A model generated the notes under the pieces. That model was not told the origin of the DNA and did no database searches. It worked only from the letters and a program-made list of their open reading frames with translations. The translations under genes were made by a program, and so were the position numbers. From the sequence record SRR2962707_813: 20,000 nucleotides of DNA. One strand, 5' to 3'. This document shows positions 12,913-19,737 of the stretch, piece by piece. The first letter of the stretch is position 1; the number at the start of each line of letters is the position of its first letter.

Positions 12913-13287
12913 TCAGGAAGAAGCGTACACTTTCTGATTATAGAAATAAGATAATGCTAACACCATACCTACTATCACTGGCATGATAATGTAGCTGATA
13001 TTTTTGTCTACCATGATGTGACTGTATGCGGCAAATATCAAATTAAATGATAAGCCAGCGTATGCCCACTCTCTCAATCTGTCTGGCAGCTTTGGAATCA
13101 TTAGTGCTGTTGCACCTGCTATTTTGCAAATGATCAAAGCGTAAGCAAAATAGTCAGGATAGCCTAATGGTTTTGTTCCGGCATTAAAATATTCATGTGC
13201 AAACAGGAGGGTGCTCAAGGGCAAAAGGGCTTCCATTAAGAAGATGATGGAGGTAGTTATCCAGAAGATGATTTTGTATTTTTTCAT
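12913..13287 (-). CDS. DoxX-like membrane protein
   Basis: IFWITT...LGYPDYF...KIAG...RLREWAYAGLSFNLIFAAYSH. Confidence 0.88.
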   Translation of the reverse strand: MKKYKIIFWITTSIIFLMEALLPLSTLLFAHEYFNAGTKPLGYPDYFAYALIICKIAGATALMIPKLPDRLREWAYAGLSFNLIFAAYSHIMVDKNISYIIMPVIVGMVLALSYFYNQKVYASS

Positions 13288-13299
13288 GGTTTTATCTTA

Positions 13300-13779
13300 T
13301 TATTTATTTGCCAGCAATTGCGCCAAGGCTTCCAATGTAGCTGTAAATCCTTCTTTGAAGCCCATTTTTATGTGCGCCTCCAGATCAGCCAGCGTTTTGT
13401 GTTTGATCCGAACCTGCACGGTGGTCTTTCCATTGGATTCTGTGAAATCTATATTCCAATTGGATCGTGGTACGTCTTGGTTGATATTTCCTTGATCGTC
13501 ACTAAAACCAGCCAATTGCTTGAAGTTTGTTTCCGGGGTGATTGAGGTGAATTCAATTACTCCCCAATGCTCTTCTCCGTTGGGTCCGACCATTGCGTAT
13601 AAGCGAGTTCCCCCTTCTATAAAATCCATGGATTTGGTCACTGATTTCCATGGATGAGGAGCCCACCACTGATCAAGGATGCTTGCCTCTGTCCATGCTG
13701 CCCAAACATCCGATTGTGATGCGTCGAACTCACGAGTTACATAAACTGTGCTGTTTTCTTTGTCGACTATAAATTCCAT
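13300..13779 (-). CDS. SRPBCC/AHSA1 domain protein
   Basis: VTREFDASQSDVWAAWTEASILDQWWAPHPW, MDFIEGGTRLYAMVGPNG, MGFKEGF. ATG 13779 preferred over the ORF-track start at 13851. Confidence 0.88.
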   Translation of the reverse strand: MEFIVDKENSTVYVTREFDASQSDVWAAWTEASILDQWWAPHPWKSVTKSMDFIEGGTRLYAMVGPNGEEHWGVIEFTSITPETNFKQLAGFSDDQGNINQDVPRSNWNIDFTESNGKTTVQVRIKHKTLADLEAHIKMGFKEGFTATLEALAQLLANK

Positions 13780-13822
13780 ATTCAATTTTGATTTTAGTTT
13801 CTGTTTTGTTCTGTTGAAAGGC

Positions 13823-14326
13823 CTATTTTTTGAAAGTTGACAAAAGTTCATCCAACCTCTCCAGGGTAGACATCAGTCCTTCTTTCATGCCCATTTTGAT
13901 CACTGCCTCCAGATCAGACAGGGACTTATAGGTTACAGTAGTTTCTACCAGTGTATTATTTCCCATATCGGAAAAATCAACATGCCACTCTGCTTTTGGA
14001 AGATCCGAATTCAGGTTTCCATCAGCGTCACTAAAGGCATCAAGTGTTTCATAAAAATCAATGGGTTGGATTTTGGTGTATTCTGTCCAGCCCCAATATT
14101 CCTGCCCTTCAGGGTCGATCATGGCATAGTGCCAGTGTCCGCCTTCGCTAAAATCCATGGATTTGGTCTTGGTGCTGAAAGGTCTGGGAGCAAACCACTG
14201 GTCCAGTAGCTCGCTTTTGGTGTAACAATCCCAAACCAATTGACGCCCTGCATTAAATTCTCTCCTTACGGTAATCGTGTTTTTTTCCTTGTCTACAAGG
14301 AAGTCAAACTGTAAATTCATTTTCAT
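13823..14326 (-). CDS. SRPBCC/AHSA1 domain protein
   Basis: [51 protein letters not shown] 14326 overlaps the arsR stop (ATGA). Confidence 0.9.
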
Positions 14327-14649
14327 TTTTTCTTGTTTTTCATTGTGGATAATAAGTTGTCGAGCTGATTGAAACGACTTTCCCAGATCTTTCGAAACTG
14401 CTCCAGCCAATGATCTATTTCTTTCATTTTCTCCACTTTTAGTTCATAGTAGATCTCTCTGCCTTGCTGGTTGGATTCAATGAGTTCACACTCACTCAAA
14501 ACCTGTATGTGCTTGGATATGGTAGGCCTGGCCACATCGAAATTGTTGGCTATTGCCCCGGCAGTCATGGTCTGTGATGCTAATAATACCAGTATCGCTC
14601 TGCGGGTAGGGTCCGCTATAGCCTGAAATGGATCTCTTCGTAGTTTCAT
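14323..14649 (-). CDS. ArsR/SmtB-family transcriptional regulator (second paralogue)
   Basis: [35 protein letters not shown]...GREIYY. Confidence 0.93.
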
Positions 14650-14676
14650 ATTAAGTCATTAAAATCGTTTATAATA

Positions 14677-14724
14677 TGTAGCTATATGGCTACAAATATA
14701 TTAATATGAAGTTAAATGGCTACA
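14677..14724. promoter_or_regulatory. ArsR operator pair (module 2) around a TAnnTTTG promoter
   Basis: TGTAGC-TATATG-GCTACA (14677-14694, palindromic arms) and TGAAGT-TAAATG-GCTACA (14707-14724). Minus-strand TATATTTG at 14693-14700. Confidence 0.75.
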
Positions 14725-14776
14725 TATTTTTGAATTTTTTTTCAAAATCAGGCTTTAAAATGTATTTGAGCAGCTT

Positions 14777-14842
14777 AACCCCCGGTTCGTGTCCTCACGA
14801 AACGAAAGATCTTCAGGATTTTGTGAAGACACAAACCATGGC
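14777..14842. repeat. REP/REPIN-like hairpin repeat, copy 1 (left of defence island)
   Basis: GGTTCGTGTCCTCACGAA...TTTGTGAAGACACAAACC imperfect inverted arms; direct copy at 18021-18085 (56 of 66 positions identical by manual alignment). Confidence 0.8.
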
Positions 14843-14901
14843 AGAGTATCTTTCTAAAGCTGCTTCCGGATGTTCTATTGCCAGAGAAGTAACGGCTTGC
14901 T

Positions 14902-14950
14902 TGTCATGCCGGACTTGATCCTGCCTTTGTCGGCAGATAGGCCTGCATCT
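14902..14950. repeat. Second REP-like element, possibly nested
   Basis: TGTCATGCCGGACTTGATCC...TGCATCT interrupted by the imperfect palindrome CCTGCCTTTGTCGGCAGATAGG. Confidence 0.4.
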
Positions 14951-15009
14951 TCCACAGTTATTTCTAATTATCCTTTGAAGGAGGGAAGAGGGTTGCTAAC
15001 TTTAGTTAA

Positions 15010-15165
15010 TTAGCAATTAAAATTAGAAGTAAGACATCTGCAGCAGTCACTTTATATGGTAAGGAGCTCCCAATAAGTGGGATAACGACTACATTAAGAA
15101 TTAGCAGGTCAACACTATATGAGTACCTAAGAAGAGAGGGTGTGTTTGACGTAAAGGCTAGTTAG
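15010..15165 (+). pseudogene. C-terminal HTH remnant of a serine recombinase (resolvase/invertase)
   Basis: Frame after TAA 15007-15009 reads LAIKIRSKTSAAVTLYGKELPISGITTTLRISRSTLYEYLRREGVFDVKAS*. ISRSTLYxYL is the Hin/resolvase HTH recognition helix; no start codon or catalytic domain. Confidence 0.7.
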
Positions 15166-15227
15166 GGTGTGGGTAACTTGTGGATATTTTTTTTTTGTTA
15201 ATTTTAATAAACCGTTATCACCGTTTT

Positions 15228-15428
15228 ATGGATGAATTTCTATCTTTTACAGGGTGGCTTATCGCACTAGGATCATTTATTGTAAACCTTATTCAACTGA
15301 ATAGAAACAAAAAGCTAGGTAAGAAGCTAAATGATTATAGAGCGATCACCAACTCCAATACTCTTAACCATTCAGGAGAAGGGGATAATATTAGCGTTGG
15401 AGGAGACGCAAAAATAAATAAGAATTAG
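15228..15428 (+). CDS. 66-aa single-TM protein with C-terminal amyloid-like motif; putative Lamassu-associated effector
   Basis: MDEFLSFTGWLIALGSFIVNLIQL (TM), basic linker, then N/G/S-rich tail NSNTLNHSGEGDNISVGGDAKINKN; ends 4 bp before the next gene. Confidence 0.75.
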   Translation: MDEFLSFTGWLIALGSFIVNLIQLNRNKKLGKKLNDYRAITNSNTLNHSGEGDNISVGGDAKINKN

Positions 15429-15432
15429 GATT

Positions 15433-15981
15433 GTGAATAAAATGGAGCATACTGGATTGGGTGATAATATTCATGCACAGGGTAACGTGTATATTAATGT
15501 AATTCAAAAATATCCAACGATACTGGCAGATCTAGTTAATGAGCTTAGTAGACAGCTGGGAGAAGAAGAAAACTCTATTGAGCTAAAGGATTTTCGGATA
15601 GAGGATAAAATTTCGTACAATAATGTCATAAGATATCGCGAGATAATTCAAGATCAGAAGATATACTATGGCAAATTGAATTTGATATATAATGAACTAG
15701 ATTCGCAAGGTTCATCTAAAAAGCAGCAAATTTTTAATTCAATAAGATCATCATACTTGAAGGCAAAAGGTCGCTTTATGAGTGAAAAACCGGAATTAGT
15801 TGAGATTGATATTATTCGTGAGAAATCAGATGATATTATAGAGAGTGTAGAGAATGAGATGATGAATATTATAGAGAAAAGCAACAACATTAATGCTGGC
15901 CTTGAGGCTATTAAATGGGGTATACAAATAATTCTTGTAGATGCCTTTATAAAGTGTAAGATTCTAGAAAATCCAAGCTAA
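15433..15981 (+). CDS. lmuA: Lamassu LmuA-like protein: ABC-3C C-terminal domain only, with a short N-terminal motif instead of an enzymatic effector
   Basis: 182 aa, helical, ends AFIKCKILENPS; sits directly before the middle component and ABC ATPase. No nuclease, protease, Sir2 or hydrolase domain is apparent. Start GTG 15433 or ATG 15442. Confidence 0.75.
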   Translation: MNKMEHTGLGDNIHAQGNVYINVIQKYPTILADLVNELSRQLGEEENSIELKDFRIEDKISYNNVIRYREIIQDQKIYYGKLNLIYNELDSQGSSKKQQIFNSIRSSYLKAKGRFMSEKPELVEIDIIREKSDDIIESVENEMMNIIEKSNNINAGLEAIKWGIQIILVDAFIKCKILENPS

Positions 15982-16214
15982 TGCTATTAAGTAAGAACCT
16001 CAGTCCTAATCACAGTCTTTATTACTCAGGTGCATTGATCATTCAAGTATTGAATGATAGCAATGAAAATGAGTTTGATTTTATAGACCTATATAATAAA
16101 TCAAACGCAAGGACTACAATCAGCATGAAGATGTTTGTATTGACGTTAGACTGGCTTTTCCTGATTGATGTGGTCAAACTAGGTGAGAATGGTTCCGTAA
16201 TAAAATGTATCTAA
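15981..16214 (+). CDS. lmuC: Lamassu LmuC / ABC-3C middle component (MC6-like)
   Basis: 77 aa, P-x-x-SLYYSGALII...FVLTLDWLFLIDVV; overlaps both neighbouring genes. Confidence 0.8.
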   Translation: MLLSKNLSPNHSLYYSGALIIQVLNDSNENEFDFIDLYNKSNARTTISMKMFVLTLDWLFLIDVVKLGENGSVIKCI

Positions 16215-17899
16215 AATCACTAGAAGTTAATTCGGATCAAGGGATAATAAGAAGTATCTCATTTAAAAAGGGGTTAAACCTTATTGTCGATGAAACTAAT
16301 TCCAATAGCGCTCAAACAACTGGTAATAATGTAGGTAAAACCACTGTTTTAAGGTTGATTGATTATTGCTTTGGTGGTAATGGTGAAAATATTTATAAAG
16401 ATTCTGAGTTTAAGGATAAATCCAATACTCAGGTTGAAAATTTCCTTATAGACAGAAGAGTTGAAGTTACTTTGACTTTAGTCGATAGTCTAAAGGATTT
16501 TGAATCTGATACAATTGTTATAAAGAGAAATTTTCTGAAAAGAAAAAGCAAAATTCAGCTAATCAATGGTGAATACTATAATGACAAGGATTTTGACTCA
16601 AAGCTCAAAAACCTGATTTTTAAAAGCTCAACTGATAAGCCAACTTTTAGACAAATCATCTCAAAGAATATTAGAGACGAGAAGAACAAGCTTCAAAATA
16701 CATTAAAAACCCTTCATTATAATACAACTAAAGAGGAATATGAGGCCCTTTATTTGTTTTGGCTAGGAATTGACCTTGATACCGCAAGTAGAAAAGTCAA
16801 ATTGAGTGAGCAAAGAAAAATGGAGATGAAAATATTCAATCGTTTGAAGAAAGGCGTTTCTGTCTCTGAGATTGAACAAGCTCTATTGATTTTAGAAAGG
16901 GACATCCAAGATTTAAATCGGCGTAAGGATAGGTTTAACTTAAATGAAAATTATGAATCTGATCTTCAGAAGTTAAATGAAACCAAGACTCATCTTAATT
17001 CGCTTTCTACTGAATTGGGAAGGCTAAAAACAAGGCAAGACTTAATCAATGAAAGTCTGAATGAATTAGAGAATGAAAAGTCAGACATTGATGTTAAGCA
17101 GTTAGAGGATATATATACAGCTGCCCAAAAATATATCCCTGATCTTCAAAAACAATTTTCTGATCTGCTTGAGTATCATAATAATATGCTTGACGAAAAG
17201 ATCGAGTTTATCGCGGCGGAAAAGCCAATAGTTGAATCTCAAATTCAGAAAGTATCAAGAGAGATACAGTTCTATATTAAGAGTGAACAGGAATTAAGTA
17301 TTAAACTGGAGAAGTCGGGAGCAATAGATGAGTTGCAATCGATTGTGTCAGATCTCAATTCAAAGCATGAGCAGAAAGGAAGTTACGAGGAGAAGCTAAA
17401 TCAGTGGAATAATTCAATAGATAAACTAGAAGAAATTGATGAGGAGCTAGAGAAAATCAATCAAGGGATAGATTCCCTAGATGAATTGATATCAAAGCGA
17501 ATAACGAGCTTTAATAGTTATTTTACCCAACTTTCTGAAATCCTATATGATGAACAATTCATCCTTAGTTATGATAAAACTGAAAGGGCATATGAATTAA
17601 AAATTAGCTCAGTTGGGGGAAATCTAGGAACAGGTAAGAAAAAAGTACAGATTGCAGCTTTTGATTTTGCATACATTCTGTTCTGTGAGGATAATGATGT
17701 CCCATGTTTTCATGCAATTCTTCATGATCAGAATGAGACAATTCACGATAATCAACTAAATCAATTAGCCGCTCTTTCTGAGAGTATAGATAGTCAATAC
17801 ATAGTTCCTGTTTTATATGACAAGCTTCCTCCAGGTATTGATATAGAGAAAAATAAAATTTTGAGTTTATCCCAGTCTGATAAGTTTTTCAAAATATAA
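16205..17899 (+). CDS. lmuB: Lamassu LmuB / ABC-3C SMC-Rad50-like ATPase (DUF2326-type)
   Basis: FKKGLNLIVDE, Walker A GNNVGKTT, long coiled coil, signature-like LGTGKKK, Walker B-like AILHD, C-terminal LSLSQSDKFFKI. Confidence 0.88.
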   Translation: MYLKSLEVNSDQGIIRSISFKKGLNLIVDETNSNSAQTTGNNVGKTTVLRLIDYCFGGNGENIYKDSEFKDKSNTQVENFLIDRRVEVTLTLVDSLKDFESDTIVIKRNFLKRKSKIQLINGEYYNDKDFDSKLKNLIFKSSTDKPTFRQIISKNIRDEKNKLQNTLKTLHYNTTKEEYEALYLFWLGIDLDTASRKVKLSEQRKMEMKIFNRLKKGVSVSEIEQALLILERDIQDLNRRKDRFNLNENYESDLQKLNETKTHLNSLSTELGRLKTRQDLINESLNELENEKSDIDVKQLEDIYTAAQKYIPDLQKQFSDLLEYHNNMLDEKIEFIAAEKPIVESQIQKVSREIQFYIKSEQELSIKLEKSGAIDELQSIVSDLNSKHEQKGSYEEKLNQWNNSIDKLEEIDEELEKINQGIDSLDELISKRITSFNSYFTQLSEILYDEQFILSYDKTERAYELKISSVGGNLGTGKKKVQIAAFDFAYILFCEDNDVPCFHAILHDQNETIHDNQLNQLAALSESIDSQYIVPVLYDKLPPGIDIEKNKILSLSQSDKFFKI

Positions 17900-18020
17900 T
17901 CCCCTAAGTTTAATTCTTTATAAGAGGAATAGTCAATTCAAATTTGGATACACTATAATTTAAACGGTGATCCACGACATTTCATTTTGTGCTCTACACA
18001 CCTCCATTTTCCATTTCTCC

Positions 18021-18085
18021 AACCCCCGGTTCGTGTCCCCCCGAATCGAAATTCTTCTGGGTTTTATGAAGACACAAACCTTAGC
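18021..18085. repeat. REP/REPIN-like hairpin repeat, copy 2 (right of defence island)
   Basis: AACCCCCGGTTCGTGTCCCCCCGAATCGAAATTCTTCTGGGTTTTATGAAGACACAAACC, same orientation as copy 1. Confidence 0.8.
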
Positions 18086-18198
18086 TAAAGATTTGACGCA
18101 AGGGCATTCAAAAGACTTACAACACCTTAATTCCTCCATTCTATATTTTCAATTCTCCTCAGCCTGGTCCTTCATTTGCAACGAGGATTCCTAATCCC

Positions 18199-18225
18199 AA
18201 AACACCTCCGATTACTCGGAGGTGT
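18199..18225 (-). terminator. Intrinsic terminator of the CMD gene
   Basis: ACACCTCCGA-TTAC-TCGGAGGTGT 10-bp stem with T tail on the minus strand. Confidence 0.75.
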
Positions 18226-18247
18226 GATCCATAGCATGATTGCTTAG

Positions 18248-18703
18248 TCAGCTTTGCTCTTCATACGAGCCCGGCACAAAGCCAAAAGTGATGGCTATAC
18301 GATTCCAGGAGTTAATCTGGCAGATGAGCAGGGTGAGATTTGCGATCTCATCCTTGGAAAAGACTTTAGCTGCGTGTGCATATGCTTCTTCCACATCACT
18401 GCCTGAGATGTTGGTCAGGGCCTCTGTCAGATGCAGCGCCGCACGCTCTTCTTCAGTGTAATGAGGTGATTCTCGCCACACCCGGGAGAGGTACAGACGC
18501 TGTGGGCTTTCTCCATCTTTTAGTGCTTCCTTTGTGTGCATATCTATGCAATAACCACAGCCATTGATCATCGATGCACGCAGCTTTACCAGGTGGTAGA
18601 TCTTCGAATCGATTCCTGCTTCCTTCAGGTATTTTTCAGTGTTCATCATGGCGGCATAAGCGCCTTTTGGTACTTCATGACTCGCTATTCGTTCCATTGT
18701 CAT
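18248..18703 (-). CDS. Carboxymuconolactone decarboxylase / AhpD-like protein
   Basis: LVKLRASMINGCGYCIDMH (CxxC...H), WRESPHYTEEERAALHLTEALT, INSWNRI. Confidence 0.92.
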   Translation of the reverse strand: MTMERIASHEVPKGAYAAMMNTEKYLKEAGIDSKIYHLVKLRASMINGCGYCIDMHTKEALKDGESPQRLYLSRVWRESPHYTEEERAALHLTEALTNISGSDVEEAYAHAAKVFSKDEIANLTLLICQINSWNRIAITFGFVPGSYEEQS

Positions 18704-18727
18704 AATTAATTTTTGATTCTGTTATTA

Positions 18728-18756
18728 TGACCGATTCGATGGGAGTGCGCGTGACA
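18728..18756 (-). promoter_or_regulatory. ECF41-type promoter for the CMD gene
   Basis: Minus strand TGTCACG-N16-CGGTC, close to the ECF41 consensus TGTCACA-N16-CGTC. Confidence 0.65.
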
Positions 18757-18761
18757 CTTTT

Positions 18762-19628
18762 TTAGAGAAATTTTAATTTTTCCTGATTCAGCACTGTGTA
18801 GATTTCATCAATCTTACCATCCCCGGTTGCCAGAATCATGGACCGGTATACGATCCCGCTTAGCACGTATACAATGGCGGGCTGGTGATTGATGGATGTA
18901 AACCGGATTTCTGTACCAGTTAGCATATACTTGGTGCCAATTGCCCGCAGTAGCTTGGCTACCCGATCCAAACCTTTCAGAGGCTTACGAGCTGCCGCAT
19001 AATCAGGCCCGCCATCCGATACGGCTCGAATAGTATCGGACAGCAGGCGTTTGATAGCGGTGAGGTCTGCATTTGCCATAGCACTTGTTAGCTCACTGAG
19101 GAGGAGTCGATCAGAGTTGTCCAGCGGTCTTCGTTTTCCTTTCATCGACTTCACTTTGTCGTTTGCTCGCTTGTAAAGCTGTCGCGAGTGGTCTTCTTTG
19201 ATTTCAAGTACATCGGCTATGTCCGGATGTTTATAGTCAAACGCATGCTTCAGGATATAGACCGCACGCTCATGTGGGTTTAGCTTTTCCATGAGCACGA
19301 GCAGCGAATAGTTGAGCACCTGCTGTTTGTCAGCCTCATGATAGATGCTTTCCGGGGTTTCAACAGGCTCAGGAAGCCAATCGCCAGGATAGTGCTCCAG
19401 CTGGTTACGAAGTAGCTGTTTATAGTTGATGGATCTGTTGATAACAGATCGAGTAAGATAGCCGGTAGTATTTTCAATGTGTGAATGATCGCGGGTGAAA
19501 AATGGCACAATTACCTCTTCCACAAGATCCCGGGCAGGCTCTGTAGCTCCGATGATGTTATAAGCATAAGGAAAGAGTTTTGCCCGGTAGTGGGTCAGTT
19601 CTTCTTGGAGATCGATTAATTCGCTCAT
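18762..19628 (-). CDS. ECF41 (SigJ-like) sigma factor with C-terminal SnoaL-like domain
   Basis: AYNIIG, YPGDWLPEP linker, LMEKLNPHERAVYILKHAFDY, SDGG, INHQPA, IYTVLNQEKL; adjacent to the CMD gene. Confidence 0.9.
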   Translation of the reverse strand: MSELIDLQEELTHYRAKLFPYAYNIIGATEPARDLVEEVIVPFFTRDHSHIENTTGYLTRSVINRSINYKQLLRNQLEHYPGDWLPEPVETPESIYHEADKQQVLNYSLLVLMEKLNPHERAVYILKHAFDYKHPDIADVLEIKEDHSRQLYKRANDKVKSMKGKRRPLDNSDRLLLSELTSAMANADLTAIKRLLSDTIRAVSDGGPDYAAARKPLKGLDRVAKLLRAIGTKYMLTGTEIRFTSINHQPAIVYVLSGIVYRSMILATGDGKIDEIYTVLNQEKLKFL

Positions 19629-19667
19629 AAGCCAGTTTTGACTGTGGAATAGTGCTTAAACATACAG

Positions 19668-19694
19668 GACAAGAAGAAAGGTCTTTTTGTGACA
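19668..19694 (-). promoter_or_regulatory. ECF41-type autoregulatory promoter
   Basis: Minus strand TGTCACA-N16-TGTC, 40 bp upstream of the sigma start codon. Confidence 0.7.
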
Positions 19695-19737
19695 TTTTTT
19701 TTCATCTGTTCGGAATCTTTCACTCTAAATTCCGATT

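What the first reader, a model, noticed from the sequence alone, without database searches (positions are those of the whole stretch)
15228..15498. Matching amyloid-like motifs link a small membrane protein to Lamassu LmuA: candidate amyloid-signalling Lamassu system
Seen in sequence: the C-terminus of the 66-aa TM protein (HSGEGDNISVGGDAKIN, 15369-15419) and the extreme N-terminus of LmuA (HTGLGDNIHAQGNVYIN, 15448-15498) align without gaps at 9/17 identities (H-x-G-x-GDNI-x3-G-x3-IN), plus S/T and D/N substitutions. Several shared residues use different codons, which points to conservation at the protein level. Established: an effector with a C-terminal motif encoded directly upstream of a sensor carrying the same motif at its N-terminus is the hallmark of amyloid signalling (fungal HET-S/NWD2, bacterial BASS motifs in Bell/NLR pairs, RHIM), and such motifs are G/N/D-rich with alternating beta-formers. 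Lamassu LmuB/C sense DNA ends and release or oligomerise LmuA, which normally carries an enzymatic effector. Inference: here activated LmuA oligomers would nucleate an amyloid fold that templates the small TM protein into a membrane-damaging assembly, causing abortive infection. I do not know of this coupling being described for Lamassu.
Basis: partly seen in the sequence, partly recalled or inferred. Interest (0 to 1): 0.95.

Follow-up and report, generated by a model that had tools for sequence, protein, structure and literature searches.

The report
Lamassu system with split membrane effector
A Lamassu-type anti-phage operon has swapped its built-in nuclease for a short peptide tag that also ends a tiny neighbouring membrane protein, which suggests the sensor switches on a membrane-damaging killer by prion-like templating.

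Summary
The 17-residue match (9 of 17 identical, no gaps) lies at the stated coordinates and beat all 2000 composition-preserving shuffles.

The operon is a type II Lamassu (ABC-3C) system: a small membrane (TM) protein, a CTD10 LmuA-like protein, the MC6 middle component and a DUF2326 ABC ATPase.

Most relatives fuse an HNH nuclease to CTD10: 140 of 170 loci by regex. In the short forms a ~20-residue G/N-rich motif replaces HNH.

All 18 short-form loci that keep their upstream DNA encode a 60-90 aa TM protein ending in the matching motif. The motifs differ between loci but match within each locus: 15 non-redundant pairs, 0 of 100,000 permutations. Synonymous sites are saturated.

The CTD10 fold best matches the LmuA oligomerisation domain.

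Most likely, released LmuA-like oligomers template the TM protein through an amyloid-like motif. Amyloid formation and phage defence are untested.

My searches found amyloid signalling described for NLR and Bab/Agp systems but not for Lamassu. Two earlier notes of this scan reported the same architecture on other DNA.

I class it as a new variant of known kinds.

The parts
15228..15428 (+). Gene for the 66-aa small membrane protein, the proposed effector: N-terminal TM helix, K/R-rich juxtamembrane stretch, linker, C-terminal motif.
   Evidence: ORF. Homologous upstream ORFs in 18 of 18 short-form loci, aligned. The family has 242 clusters at E<=0.01 and none of the 120 listed has a precomputed Pfam domain. 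No Pfam hit reaches its cut-off.
15240..15302 (+). Predicted single transmembrane helix (about residues 5-25). It is followed by NRNKKLGKKL, which by the positive-inside rule puts the C-terminal tail in the cytoplasm.
   Evidence: Best 19-residue Kyte-Doolittle window 1.87 at residue 4. All 120 listed family members have such a window, with median start at residue 5. The topology is inferred from charge distribution.
15369..15419 (+). Effector-side motif HSGEGDNISVGGDAKIN. It ends 2 residues before the C-terminus.
   Evidence: Score 48 against the partner motif; 0 of 2000 shuffles reach it.
15433..15981 (+). LmuA-like adaptor: N-terminal motif plus the CTD10 domain, with no enzymatic effector domain. 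The start is GTG 15433 or ATG 15445. Homologues have 4-5 residues before the conserved H, which fits the GTG start.
   Evidence: Pfam PF20275 CTD10 E 2.6e-14, residues 27-175. AF2 pLDDT 88.6, all-alpha, with residues 1-20 as coil at pLDDT 57-58. Best fold matches are LmuA CTDs 9hqx_A (Z 7.2) and 9nxx_A (Z 7.0).
15448..15498 (+). Sensor-side motif HTGLGDNIHAQGNVYIN. It occupies the position where sister proteins carry an HNH nuclease domain.
15981..16214 (+). LmuC-like middle component (MC6), 77 aa.
   Evidence: Pfam PF20293 MC6 E 2.2e-19. Conserved in 15 of 16 short-form loci.
16205..17899 (+). LmuB-like SMC/Rad50-type ABC ATPase, 564 aa, with Walker A GNNVGKT and a long coiled-coil region.
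   Evidence: Pfam DUF2326 E 8.5e-15 and SMC_N E 3.6e-4. PADLOC PDC-M68B E 1.1e-41 and LmuB E 1.3e-10. The Walker A motif is read from the translation.

Best explanation
This is a four-gene type II Lamassu (ABC-3C) defence cassette of the CTD10/MC6/DUF2326 subfamily, with the effector split off into a separate gene.

The LmuA-like protein keeps only its C-terminal CTD10 domain. By analogy with solved LmuA proteins, this domain is held as a monomer by an LmuB dimer plus LmuC. It is released and oligomerises when the ATPase complex senses foreign DNA ends.

In place of the HNH nuclease found in sister systems, the protein carries a disordered ~20-residue G/N-rich motif at its N-terminus. The upstream gene encodes a 66-aa protein with one TM helix and a cytoplasmic tail that ends in the same motif.

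Proposed mechanism:
1. Oligomerisation of CTD10 brings several N-terminal motifs together.
2. They nucleate a cross-beta (amyloid-like) fold.
3. That fold templates the tails of the membrane protein.
4. The TM helices cluster into a membrane-permeabilising assembly, and the infected cell dies (abortive infection).

Shown here: the gene family assignments, replacement of HNH by the motif, the conserved four-gene set, within-locus matching with between-locus divergence, protein-level selection on the match, and the LmuA-CTD-like fold.

Inferred: DNA-end sensing, release and oligomerisation (by homology to CTD7 and CTD12 Lamassu), the amyloid nature of the contact, membrane damage, and phage defence.
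For: Family assignment. CTD10, MC6 and DUF2326 match by Pfam, and the ATPase matches LmuB models in PADLOC. The CTD10 model's top two of 48,161 chains are LmuA C-terminal domains: Z 7.2 and 7.0, next best 5.1. The Foldseek best hit is B. subtilis YydB in a YydD-YydB model, E 0.04, TMq 0.61.

Effector swap. Of 170 related loci, 140 are HNH-CTD10 fusions by regex and 19 are short forms. The other 11 are HNH variants or fragments that the regex missed.

Partner gene. All 18 short forms with upstream DNA have a same-strand 60-90 aa TM ORF that ends within a few bases of, or overlaps, the CTD10 start, and its C-terminus matches the CTD10 N-terminus.

Co-variation, 15 non-redundant pairs.
- Cognate score mean 60.5 against non-cognate 30.1.
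- The cognate partner ranks first in 9 of 15 (TM to CTD10) and 10 of 15 (CTD10 to TM) comparisons, and never below 4th.
- 0 of 100,000 partner permutations reach the observed sum.
- Every pair beats 2000 shuffles, z 6.6-11.9.

Motif properties. 14 of 15 pairs align without gaps over 11-25 columns, at 37-73% identity (mean 57%). Composition is N 19.5%, G 17.3%, P 0.3%, L 2.2%, K 3.5%. Dyrka et al. 2020 describe BASS motifs as about 25 aa, enriched in Q/N/G/V/I, depleted in K/P/L, with tested pair identity of 43-56% (passages and section 9 read). One pair (L165) carries G-I-Q-I-G and G-L-Q-I-G, the G-phi-Q-phi-G core that Dyrka et al. give for RHIM/PP/BASS3.

Selection at protein level. 84 of 166 identical residues use different codons, against 77.5 expected for independent codon choice.

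No other effector candidate. Only four gene families are conserved across 16 short-form loci.

Disorder. The AF2 N-terminus is coil at pLDDT 57-58.

Oligomerisation step. LmuA is sequestered as a monomer through its C-terminal domain and forms tetramers once liberated (passages of 10.1101/2025.03.14.643221 and 10.1101/2025.06.23.660979).

Precedent. Bab/Agp BASS11 amyloid signalling gives abortive-infection defence in E. coli (10.1101/2024.11.07.622273; introduction part 1 and discussion read).

Breadth. 802 representative proteins match at E<=0.001. Of the best 150, 120 are 165-230 aa without HNH. G+N fraction is 0.24 in their first 32 residues against 0.10 in the rest.
Against: No experiment or amyloid predictor was available, so cross-beta formation is untested. 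The motifs were not compared with BASS1-11 profiles, which I did not have.

Within a motif family the match is not locus-specific. The window's TM motif scores higher with the CTD10 N-termini of L090 (58) and L081 (55) than with its own (48).

The permutation test does not correct for shared descent. On the ATPase tree the short/HNH label needs only 2 changes and 1 is not excluded. The architecture may therefore have arisen once, and the number of independent motif switches is small.

The fold match to LmuA CTD has Z about 7, which the tool warns can be a common helical arrangement. Foldseek found nothing at E<=0.001.

The effector has no Bell/HeLo-like domain. A lone TM helix may need a different activation logic from HET-S or Bab.

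The sensor mechanism is extrapolated from CTD7/CTD12 Lamassu to CTD10.
Confidence: 0.55

Rival explanations
1. Same split-effector Lamassu architecture, but the matched motifs form an ordinary stoichiometric contact, such as beta-strand pairing or a small zipper, rather than a self-propagating amyloid. The motif simply docks the LmuA-like adaptor to the membrane protein. Activation works by induced proximity: a CTD10 tetramer gathers a fixed number of TM helices.
For: The within-locus matching, co-variation and effector replacement only require a specific homotypic contact. Solved LmuA oligomers are closed tetramers, not open filaments (passages). Some motifs are short: the L044 match spans 11 columns.
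Against: Stoichiometric docking does not need the two sides to resemble each other, because complementary surfaces usually differ. Here both sides keep the same sequence, with N/G-rich, P/L/K-poor composition like BASS motifs. One pair has the RHIM-type G-phi-Q-phi-G core. Matched C-terminal and N-terminal motifs in adjacent genes is the arrangement of the experimentally confirmed amyloid signalling pairs.
Confidence: 0.27
2. The small TM protein is not the killer. It anchors or regulates the Lamassu complex, for example by localising it at the membrane where phage DNA enters or by holding the adaptor inactive. Toxicity would come from another component or from a host factor.
For: No enzymatic or known pore-forming domain was detected in the TM protein. 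The only hints are sub-threshold Hol_Tox hits (3 of 15 members, best E 0.014) and DUF6353 hits (3 of 15, best E 3e-05, 24.1 bits against a cut-off of 25).
Against: The motif replaces the effector domain at exactly the effector position of CTD10 proteins. No other gene is conserved in the 16 short-form loci, so this reading leaves the system without any effector.
Confidence: 0.12
3. The match is an artefact: a frameshifted or nonsense-broken single gene with a tandem repeat, or a recent local duplication or gene conversion with no function.
For: The two DNA segments are 75% identical over 24 nt, 79 nt apart (repeat D5).
Against: The two-gene layout with a stop codon is kept in 18 of 18 loci from Bacteroidota, Balneola, Lachnospiraceae and viral contigs. 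None of the 150 best representatives has an N-terminal TM segment. Synonymous sites between the copies are saturated: 84 differences observed against 77.5 expected.
Confidence: 0.01

Closest known systems
Type II Lamassu / ABC-3C systems (LmuA-LmuC-LmuB; DdmABC), CTD10-MC6-DUF2326 subfamily with HNH effector
   Same: Gene order, the CTD10, MC6 and DUF2326 families, LmuB-model hits, and an LmuA-CTD-like fold. ATPases of HNH-type sister loci are 50-54% identical to the window's.
   Different: The LmuA-like protein has no effector domain and carries a ~20-aa motif instead. A fourth gene encodes a TM protein with the same motif. The effector classes listed in the passages I read are nuclease, SIR2, hydrolase, protease, phosphoesterase, monooxygenase and lipase. 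None of these is a separate membrane protein.
Bab/Agp BASS11 amyloid-signalling Abi system of E. coli (Ibarlosa et al., bioRxiv 10.1101/2024.11.07.622273)
   Same: Adjacent genes. A small effector with an N-terminal hydrophobic helix and a C-terminal ~20-aa motif. The sensor carries the same motif at its N-terminus. The proposed outcome is membrane-targeted abortive infection.
   Different: [quoted passage not shown] Bab has a ~90-aa helical 'Babybell' domain, whereas here there is only a TM helix plus linker. The motif sequences differ. 'Lamassu', 'ABC' and 'SMC' do not occur in that text.
NLR/Bell BASS1-10 pairs of filamentous bacteria and fungal NWD2/HET-S (Dyrka et al. 2020, bioRxiv 10.1101/2020.01.06.895854)
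   Same: C-terminal and N-terminal motif pairs in adjacent genes, similar composition, length and pair identity, and parallel 'all-in-one' architectures where the effector domain is fused directly to the receptor.
   Different: Those receptors are NACHT/NB-ARC STAND NTPases and the effectors are Bell, TIR, CHAT or hydrolase domains. They were reported in multicellular Actinobacteria and Cyanobacteria. Here the hosts named in record titles are Bacteroidota, Balneola and Lachnospiraceae, plus viral contigs.
Effector-associated domains (EADs, Death-like adaptors) of NTPase conflict systems (Kaur et al. 2020, PMC7159879)
   Same: The logic of a shared homotypic adaptor that couples a separately encoded effector to an NTPase sensor. 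This description is recalled from memory. A term search of that paper found no mention of ABC-3C or amyloid.
   Different: EADs are folded helical domains. Here the adaptor is a short, disordered G/N-rich peptide.

Membership tests
Type II Lamassu / ABC-3C | SMC/Rad50-like ABC ATPase (LmuB) with Walker A and a coiled-coil insert | tested here: met
   DUF2326 E 8.5e-15 and SMC_N E 3.6e-4. PADLOC LmuB models E 1.3e-10 and 1.3e-08; best model PDC-M68B E 1.1e-41. GNNVGKT is read in the translation.
Type II Lamassu / ABC-3C | Small middle component (LmuC / MC family) encoded between LmuA and LmuB | tested here: met
   PF20293 MC6 E 2.2e-19. The gene lies at 15981-16214, between the other two.
Type II Lamassu / ABC-3C | LmuA with a family-specific C-terminal (oligomerisation) domain | tested here: met
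   PF20275 CTD10 E 2.6e-14. AF2 model pLDDT 88.6. Top two VIA matches are LmuA residues 273-398 (9hqx_A, Z 7.2, rmsd 4.1, 115 aligned) and 237-382 (9nxx_A, Z 7.0, rmsd 3.8, 117 aligned); the next match is Z 5.1. Z is middling for a helical fold.
Type II Lamassu / ABC-3C | Enzymatic effector domain fused to the N-terminus of LmuA | tested here: not met
   Only about 26 residues precede CTD10, with no domain hit. Sister proteins carry HNH there.
Type II Lamassu / ABC-3C | Protection against phage or plasmids; activation by DNA ends | not testable with these tools
   No experiment was possible. The mechanism is taken from passages on CTD7/CTD12 systems.
Amyloid signalling motif pair (BASS/FASS type) | Same short motif at the C-terminus of an effector and the N-terminus of an oligomerising sensor protein, encoded by adjacent genes | tested here: met
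   Window pair. 18 of 18 short-form loci. The TM-side motif ends 0-7 residues from the C-terminus and the CTD10-side motif starts at residue 1-12.
Amyloid signalling motif pair (BASS/FASS type) | About 20-25 residues, enriched in N/G/Q/V/I and depleted in P/L/K; pair identity around 40-60% | tested here: met
   11-25 columns, mean identity 57%. N 19.5, G 17.3, I 9.4, V 6.6, Q 5.2, P 0.3, L 2.2, K 3.5%. Criteria are taken from Dyrka et al., section 9 and passages.
Amyloid signalling motif pair (BASS/FASS type) | Parallel 'all-in-one' architectures with an effector domain in place of the motif | tested here: met
   HNH-CTD10 fusions in 140 of 170 loci. The criterion is described in Dyrka et al., section 9.
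Amyloid signalling motif pair (BASS/FASS type) | Sensor is an NLR (NACHT/NB-ARC) or, for BASS11, a TGP protein | tested here: not met
   The sensor module is CTD10 + MC6 + ABC ATPase.
Amyloid signalling motif pair (BASS/FASS type) | Effector carries a Bell/HeLo-like helical membrane-targeting domain or another immune domain | tested here: inconclusive
   There is only one TM helix and no Pfam family reaches its cut-off. No Bell profile was available to compare.
Amyloid signalling motif pair (BASS/FASS type) | Match to a described motif family (BASS1-11, RHIM/PP core G-phi-Q-phi-G) | tested here: inconclusive
   G-phi-Q-phi-G is present on both sides in 1 of 15 pairs (L165). With a looser pattern, G-phi-x-phi-[GA] with S/T/A/M/F also allowed at the phi positions, 5 of 15 match on both sides and 1 more on one side. 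The window's pair has neither. BASS profiles were not available.
Amyloid signalling motif pair (BASS/FASS type) | Fibril formation, cross-seeding and prion-like propagation | not testable with these tools
   This needs peptides and ThT, EM or ssNMR. No amyloid predictor was installed.

The most novel reading that the evidence does not exclude
SMC-type (Lamassu) immune sensors use prion-like amyloid templating to fire a minimal executioner made of a single TM helix plus a ~20-residue tag.

This would be a large family. Of the 150 best representative CTD10 proteins (50%-identity clusters), 120 are short forms. The TM protein has 242 clusters at 90% identity. Members occur in unicellular Bacteroidota and Firmicutes and on phage-like contigs.

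If so, amyloid signalling is not confined to NLR/TGP sensors or to multicellular microbes. The co-varying motifs would act as interchangeable address labels that keep co-resident systems insulated from one another.
Probability: 0.5. Interest if true: 0.9.

Novelty: new variant of a known kind. Interest (0 to 1): 0.8.

Why it matters
Two known ideas would be joined that the papers I could search treat separately.

First, Lamassu activation works by release and oligomerisation of LmuA. Second, amyloid signalling needs an oligomerising receptor to nucleate a short motif. If the link is confirmed:

- Lamassu gains a membrane-targeting effector class encoded in trans.
- Amyloid signalling extends to an SMC-like sensor and to unicellular gut and environmental bacteria.
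- It offers the smallest amyloid-controlled executioner so far, a single TM helix. That makes a tractable model for how cross-beta templating turns into membrane damage.
- The co-varying motif families allow a clean swap experiment on signalling specificity.

There is also a practical point. Annotation pipelines would see these operons as Lamassu systems lacking an effector. The TM family members that carry a name are mostly called 'hypothetical protein', and none of the 120 listed has a Pfam domain.

Tried and rejected
**Complex prediction.** I submitted 3 copies of CTD10 residues 1-40 and 3 copies of TM protein residues 30-66. The answer was 'no answer' (score 0.01, mark 0.34, controls not run). 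It counts neither for nor against binding.

**Foldseek against PDB.** Nothing at E<=0.001. The solved LmuA chains only surfaced with the wide VIA search.

**Recurrent origin of the split form.** I considered this after ATPase similarity ranks scattered the short forms. I dropped it because the ATPase tree needs only 2 label changes and 1 is not excluded. That was FastTree only, with long-branch warnings.

**Promoter and terminator scan of 14600-18300.** 13 promoter-like sites against 14.3 expected, so it was uninformative.

**tRNA integration site.** No tRNA gene in the window.

**Phage records.** No tblastn match for a viral-contig-type CTD10 protein among 50,697 phage records.

**Own genome.** It is not held, so I used the nearest genome, G001.

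**Literature.**
- The first search was wasted by a loose setting.
- 'Lamassu' plus 'amyloid' returned 3 papers, which I judged irrelevant from titles and abstract openings only.
- The searches found no description of this coupling.
- Term searches inside PMC12261475, PMC13506858, 10.64898/2026.10.19.760177 and 10.1101/2024.01.29.577857 found nothing relevant.
- Krishnan et al. 2020 (NAR), which defined CTD10 and MC6, is not held. It and any supplements may mention short CTD10 forms, and I could not check.

**Holin or type I toxin membership of the TM protein.** Only sub-threshold hits: Hol_Tox E 0.16 and PepG1 E 0.16.
Full report
**1. What is in the window**

Four same-strand genes lie head to tail:
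- a 66-aa ORF at 15228-15428;
- a 178/182-aa ORF from ATG 15445 or GTG 15433 to 15981;
- a 77-aa ORF at 15981-16214;
- a 564-aa ORF at 16205-17899.

Pfam assigns the last three to CTD10 (E 2.6e-14), MC6 (E 2.2e-19) and DUF2326/SMC_N of the ABC-three-component systems. PADLOC matches the ATPase to PDC-M68B (E 1.1e-41) and to LmuB models (E 1.3e-10).

Passages of 10.1101/2025.06.23.660979 state that type II Lamassu is the same thing as ABC-3C and that LmuA C-terminal domains are named by the CTD scheme.

The 66-aa protein has no family. It has one hydrophobic helix near the N-terminus, then NRNKKLGKKL, a linker and the motif.

**2. The observation**

The two 17-residue segments are at the stated coordinates and share 9 of 17 residues without gaps. 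The local score of 48 exceeds all 2000 shuffles (mean 19.4, sd 4.0). Three of the nine shared residues use different codons.

**3. What relatives show**

A protein search found nine relatives. Three had HNH domains in front of CTD10 and six had short G/N-rich N-termini.

Scans returned 170 loci:
- Genome contigs: 122 relatives, best 80 kept;
- Metagenome contigs: 218 relatives, best 80 kept;
- Viral contigs: 10 relatives.

A regex classed 140 of these as HNH-CTD10 fusions. Of the 30 others, 19 are short forms. The remaining 11 are HNH variants the regex missed, or truncated ORFs (L028, L040, L058, L059, L070, L118, L134, L136, L137, L140, L148).

One short form (L075) is cut at the contig end. 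In each of the other 18, the ORF just upstream on the same strand encodes a 60-90 aa protein. It has an N-terminal hydrophobic helix and a C-terminus that repeats the N-terminus of the CTD10 protein.

The motifs differ sharply between loci:
- H-S-G-x-G-D-N-I types;
- G-x-Q/N-Y-x-A-x-R-D-I-N types in L002, L086 and L117;
- N-x-G-x-N-x-G-phi-x-phi-G types in Lachnospiraceae and viral contigs;
- a Q-K/R-S-G...N-x-Q-x-V-V type in L167.

Within each locus, however, the two motifs agree.

**4. Statistics**

I dropped four near-duplicates (L083, L163, L168, L169) and added the window, which left 15 pairs.
- Cognate scores average 60.5 against 30.1 for non-cognate combinations.
- The cognate partner is the best match in 9 of 15 (TM to CTD10) and 10 of 15 (CTD10 to TM) cases.
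- 0 of 100,000 partner permutations reach the observed sum.
- Each pair beats 2000 shuffles.
- The same comparison in 89 HNH loci never exceeded 28, while the lowest cognate score is 44.

Two caveats apply. The permutation ignores shared descent. Within one motif family the partners are interchangeable by score: the window's TM motif scores higher with the L090 and L081 partners than with its own.

Identical residues use different codons in 84 of 166 cases, against 77.5 expected if codons were chosen independently. The resemblance is therefore kept at the protein level and is not a recent duplication or gene conversion.

**5. Evolutionary setting**

On a FastTree of 130 ATPases (16 short, 114 HNH), the window sits in an all-short clade of six (support 98). 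The label needs two changes, and one is not excluded. The split architecture is thus old and stable. It has persisted while ATPases diverged to about 30% identity. I cannot say which form is ancestral.

Across 16 short-form loci only four gene families recur, so the TM protein is the only candidate effector.

The family is large. A profile of short forms finds 802 representative proteins at E<=0.001. Among the best 150, 120 are 165-230 aa without HNH, and by my count from the printed list 104 of these have at least 16% G+N in the first 32 residues. None of the 150 has an N-terminal hydrophobic segment, so no fused forms were seen.

A profile of the TM proteins finds 242 clusters at E<=0.01. 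The 120 listed are mostly about 72 aa, and those that carry a name are mostly called 'hypothetical protein'.

**6. Structure**

AF2 with 76 sequences gives a confident seven-helix CTD10 domain (pLDDT 88.6, pTM 0.80). Residues 1-20 are unstructured at pLDDT 57-58.

Foldseek's best hit is B. subtilis YydB in a YydD-YydB model (E 0.04).

The wide VIA search puts two LmuA chains on top, both aligned over their C-terminal domains (Z 7.2 and 7.0, next 5.1). These Z values are modest for a helical fold. I take them as agreeing with the Pfam assignment rather than as independent proof.

**7. Mechanism**

Two preprints report that the LmuA C-terminal domain is buried in the LmuB2-LmuC complex as a monomer. 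After DNA-end sensing it is liberated and oligomerises, and this is what activates the N-terminal effector (passages).

Amyloid signalling, as described for NWD2/HET-S, the BASS pairs and Bab/Agp, needs exactly such a step. An oligomerising receptor brings N-terminal motifs together, and the resulting fold templates the C-terminal motif of a membrane-targeting effector encoded next door.

The present motifs meet the sequence-level criteria listed by Dyrka et al.: position, length, composition, pair identity, and the existence of all-in-one relatives. One pair even carries the RHIM-type G-phi-Q-phi-G core.

I therefore favour amyloid-like templating of a cytoplasmic tail that clusters TM helices into a lethal membrane lesion (0.55). 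An ordinary docking contact comes second (0.27). An anchoring or regulatory role for the TM protein comes third (0.12).

**8. Known or new**

Amyloid signalling in phage defence is published for Bab/Agp, and that text does not mention Lamassu, ABC or SMC. My searches found no paper linking Lamassu or ABC-3C to amyloid motifs or to a separate TM effector.

The paper that defined CTD10 is not held, which leaves a gap.

Two earlier notes of this scan describe the same architecture in other genomes. I had reached the reading before seeing them, and they agree with it.

I class the finding as a new variant of known kinds.

**9. Context**

The nearest held genome, G001, shares 42% of sampled words. 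It matches the right flank (window 18179-19700) at 81% identity. It has no DNA match to the operon and no protein match to the ATPase. The cassette therefore looks accessory.

A ~66-nt direct repeat brackets it, and a resolvase-like HTH remnant lies just upstream.

Noticed in passing
window 14777-14842 and 18021-18085: A ~66-nt direct repeat (85-90% identical, spacing about 3244 nt) brackets the Lamassu cassette. The left copy also matches five places in the nearest genome G001, one of them next to the homologue of the right flank. It is a dispersed repeat that may mark the insertion site of the cassette.
   Followed up: partly
window 15010-15165 (+): A stop-to-stop frame of 51 aa ending ...ISRSTLYEYLRREGVFDVKAS gives a sub-threshold hit to the resolvase HTH_7 domain (E 0.002, 18.7 bits against a cut-off of 23.8). 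It is probably the remnant of a serine recombinase gene directly upstream of the cassette.
   Followed up: partly
window 14672-14731: A tandem 30-nt repeat, each unit an imperfect palindrome around GTAGC...GCTAC, lies just upstream of the divergent ArsR-family gene at 14323-14649 (D3/I1). It looks like an operator. The ArsR gene heads a minus-strand set with two AHSA1/SRPBCC genes and a DoxX gene.
   Followed up: no
G001 (nearest held genome): No DNA match to window 13000-18178 apart from the repeat and a 69% match in the ArsR region, and no protein match to the ATPase. The right flank is 81% identical. The whole left part of this stretch differs between the two genomes.
   Followed up: partly
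proteins P0010, P0014, P0021, P0026, P0031, P0049 (listing): Some database members of the TM family run 7 residues past the usual ...GDIHK end (for example ...KWQEMTTK). This looks like a gene call that read the TGA stop as W. The usual stop overlaps the CTD10 start (ATGA) in L162.
   Followed up: no
L165:3691-3939: The TM protein on this viral contig has a run of about 30 asparagines between the TM helix and the motif, and its motif pair carries the RHIM-like G-[IL]-Q-I-G core.
   Followed up: partly
L167-L169 (viral contigs): A divergent subtype whose upstream protein appears to have two hydrophobic segments, with a different motif pair (IIQKSGSHSKNNQTVVFGNN against VTQRSGNYSRNVQVVVDSNS). 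Its ATPase sits on a long branch.
   Followed up: no
plasmid records H1-H6; proteins P0027, P0045, P0058: CTD10 relatives lie on plasmids of Priestia megaterium and Clostridium botulinum. NCBI annotates them as 'ABC-three component system protein' or 'hypothetical protein'. TM-family members are also recorded from C. botulinum genomes. The P. megaterium copy (L178) is a 328-aa long form beside MC6 and DUF2326.
   Followed up: partly
L074, L162, L164 TM proteins: The TM helix plus KNEAKK region gives near-threshold hits to the N-terminal ~50 positions of Pfam DUF6353, a 253-position model (best E 3e-05, 24.1 bits against a cut-off of 25). That family might include longer proteins built on the same membrane anchor.
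   Followed up: no
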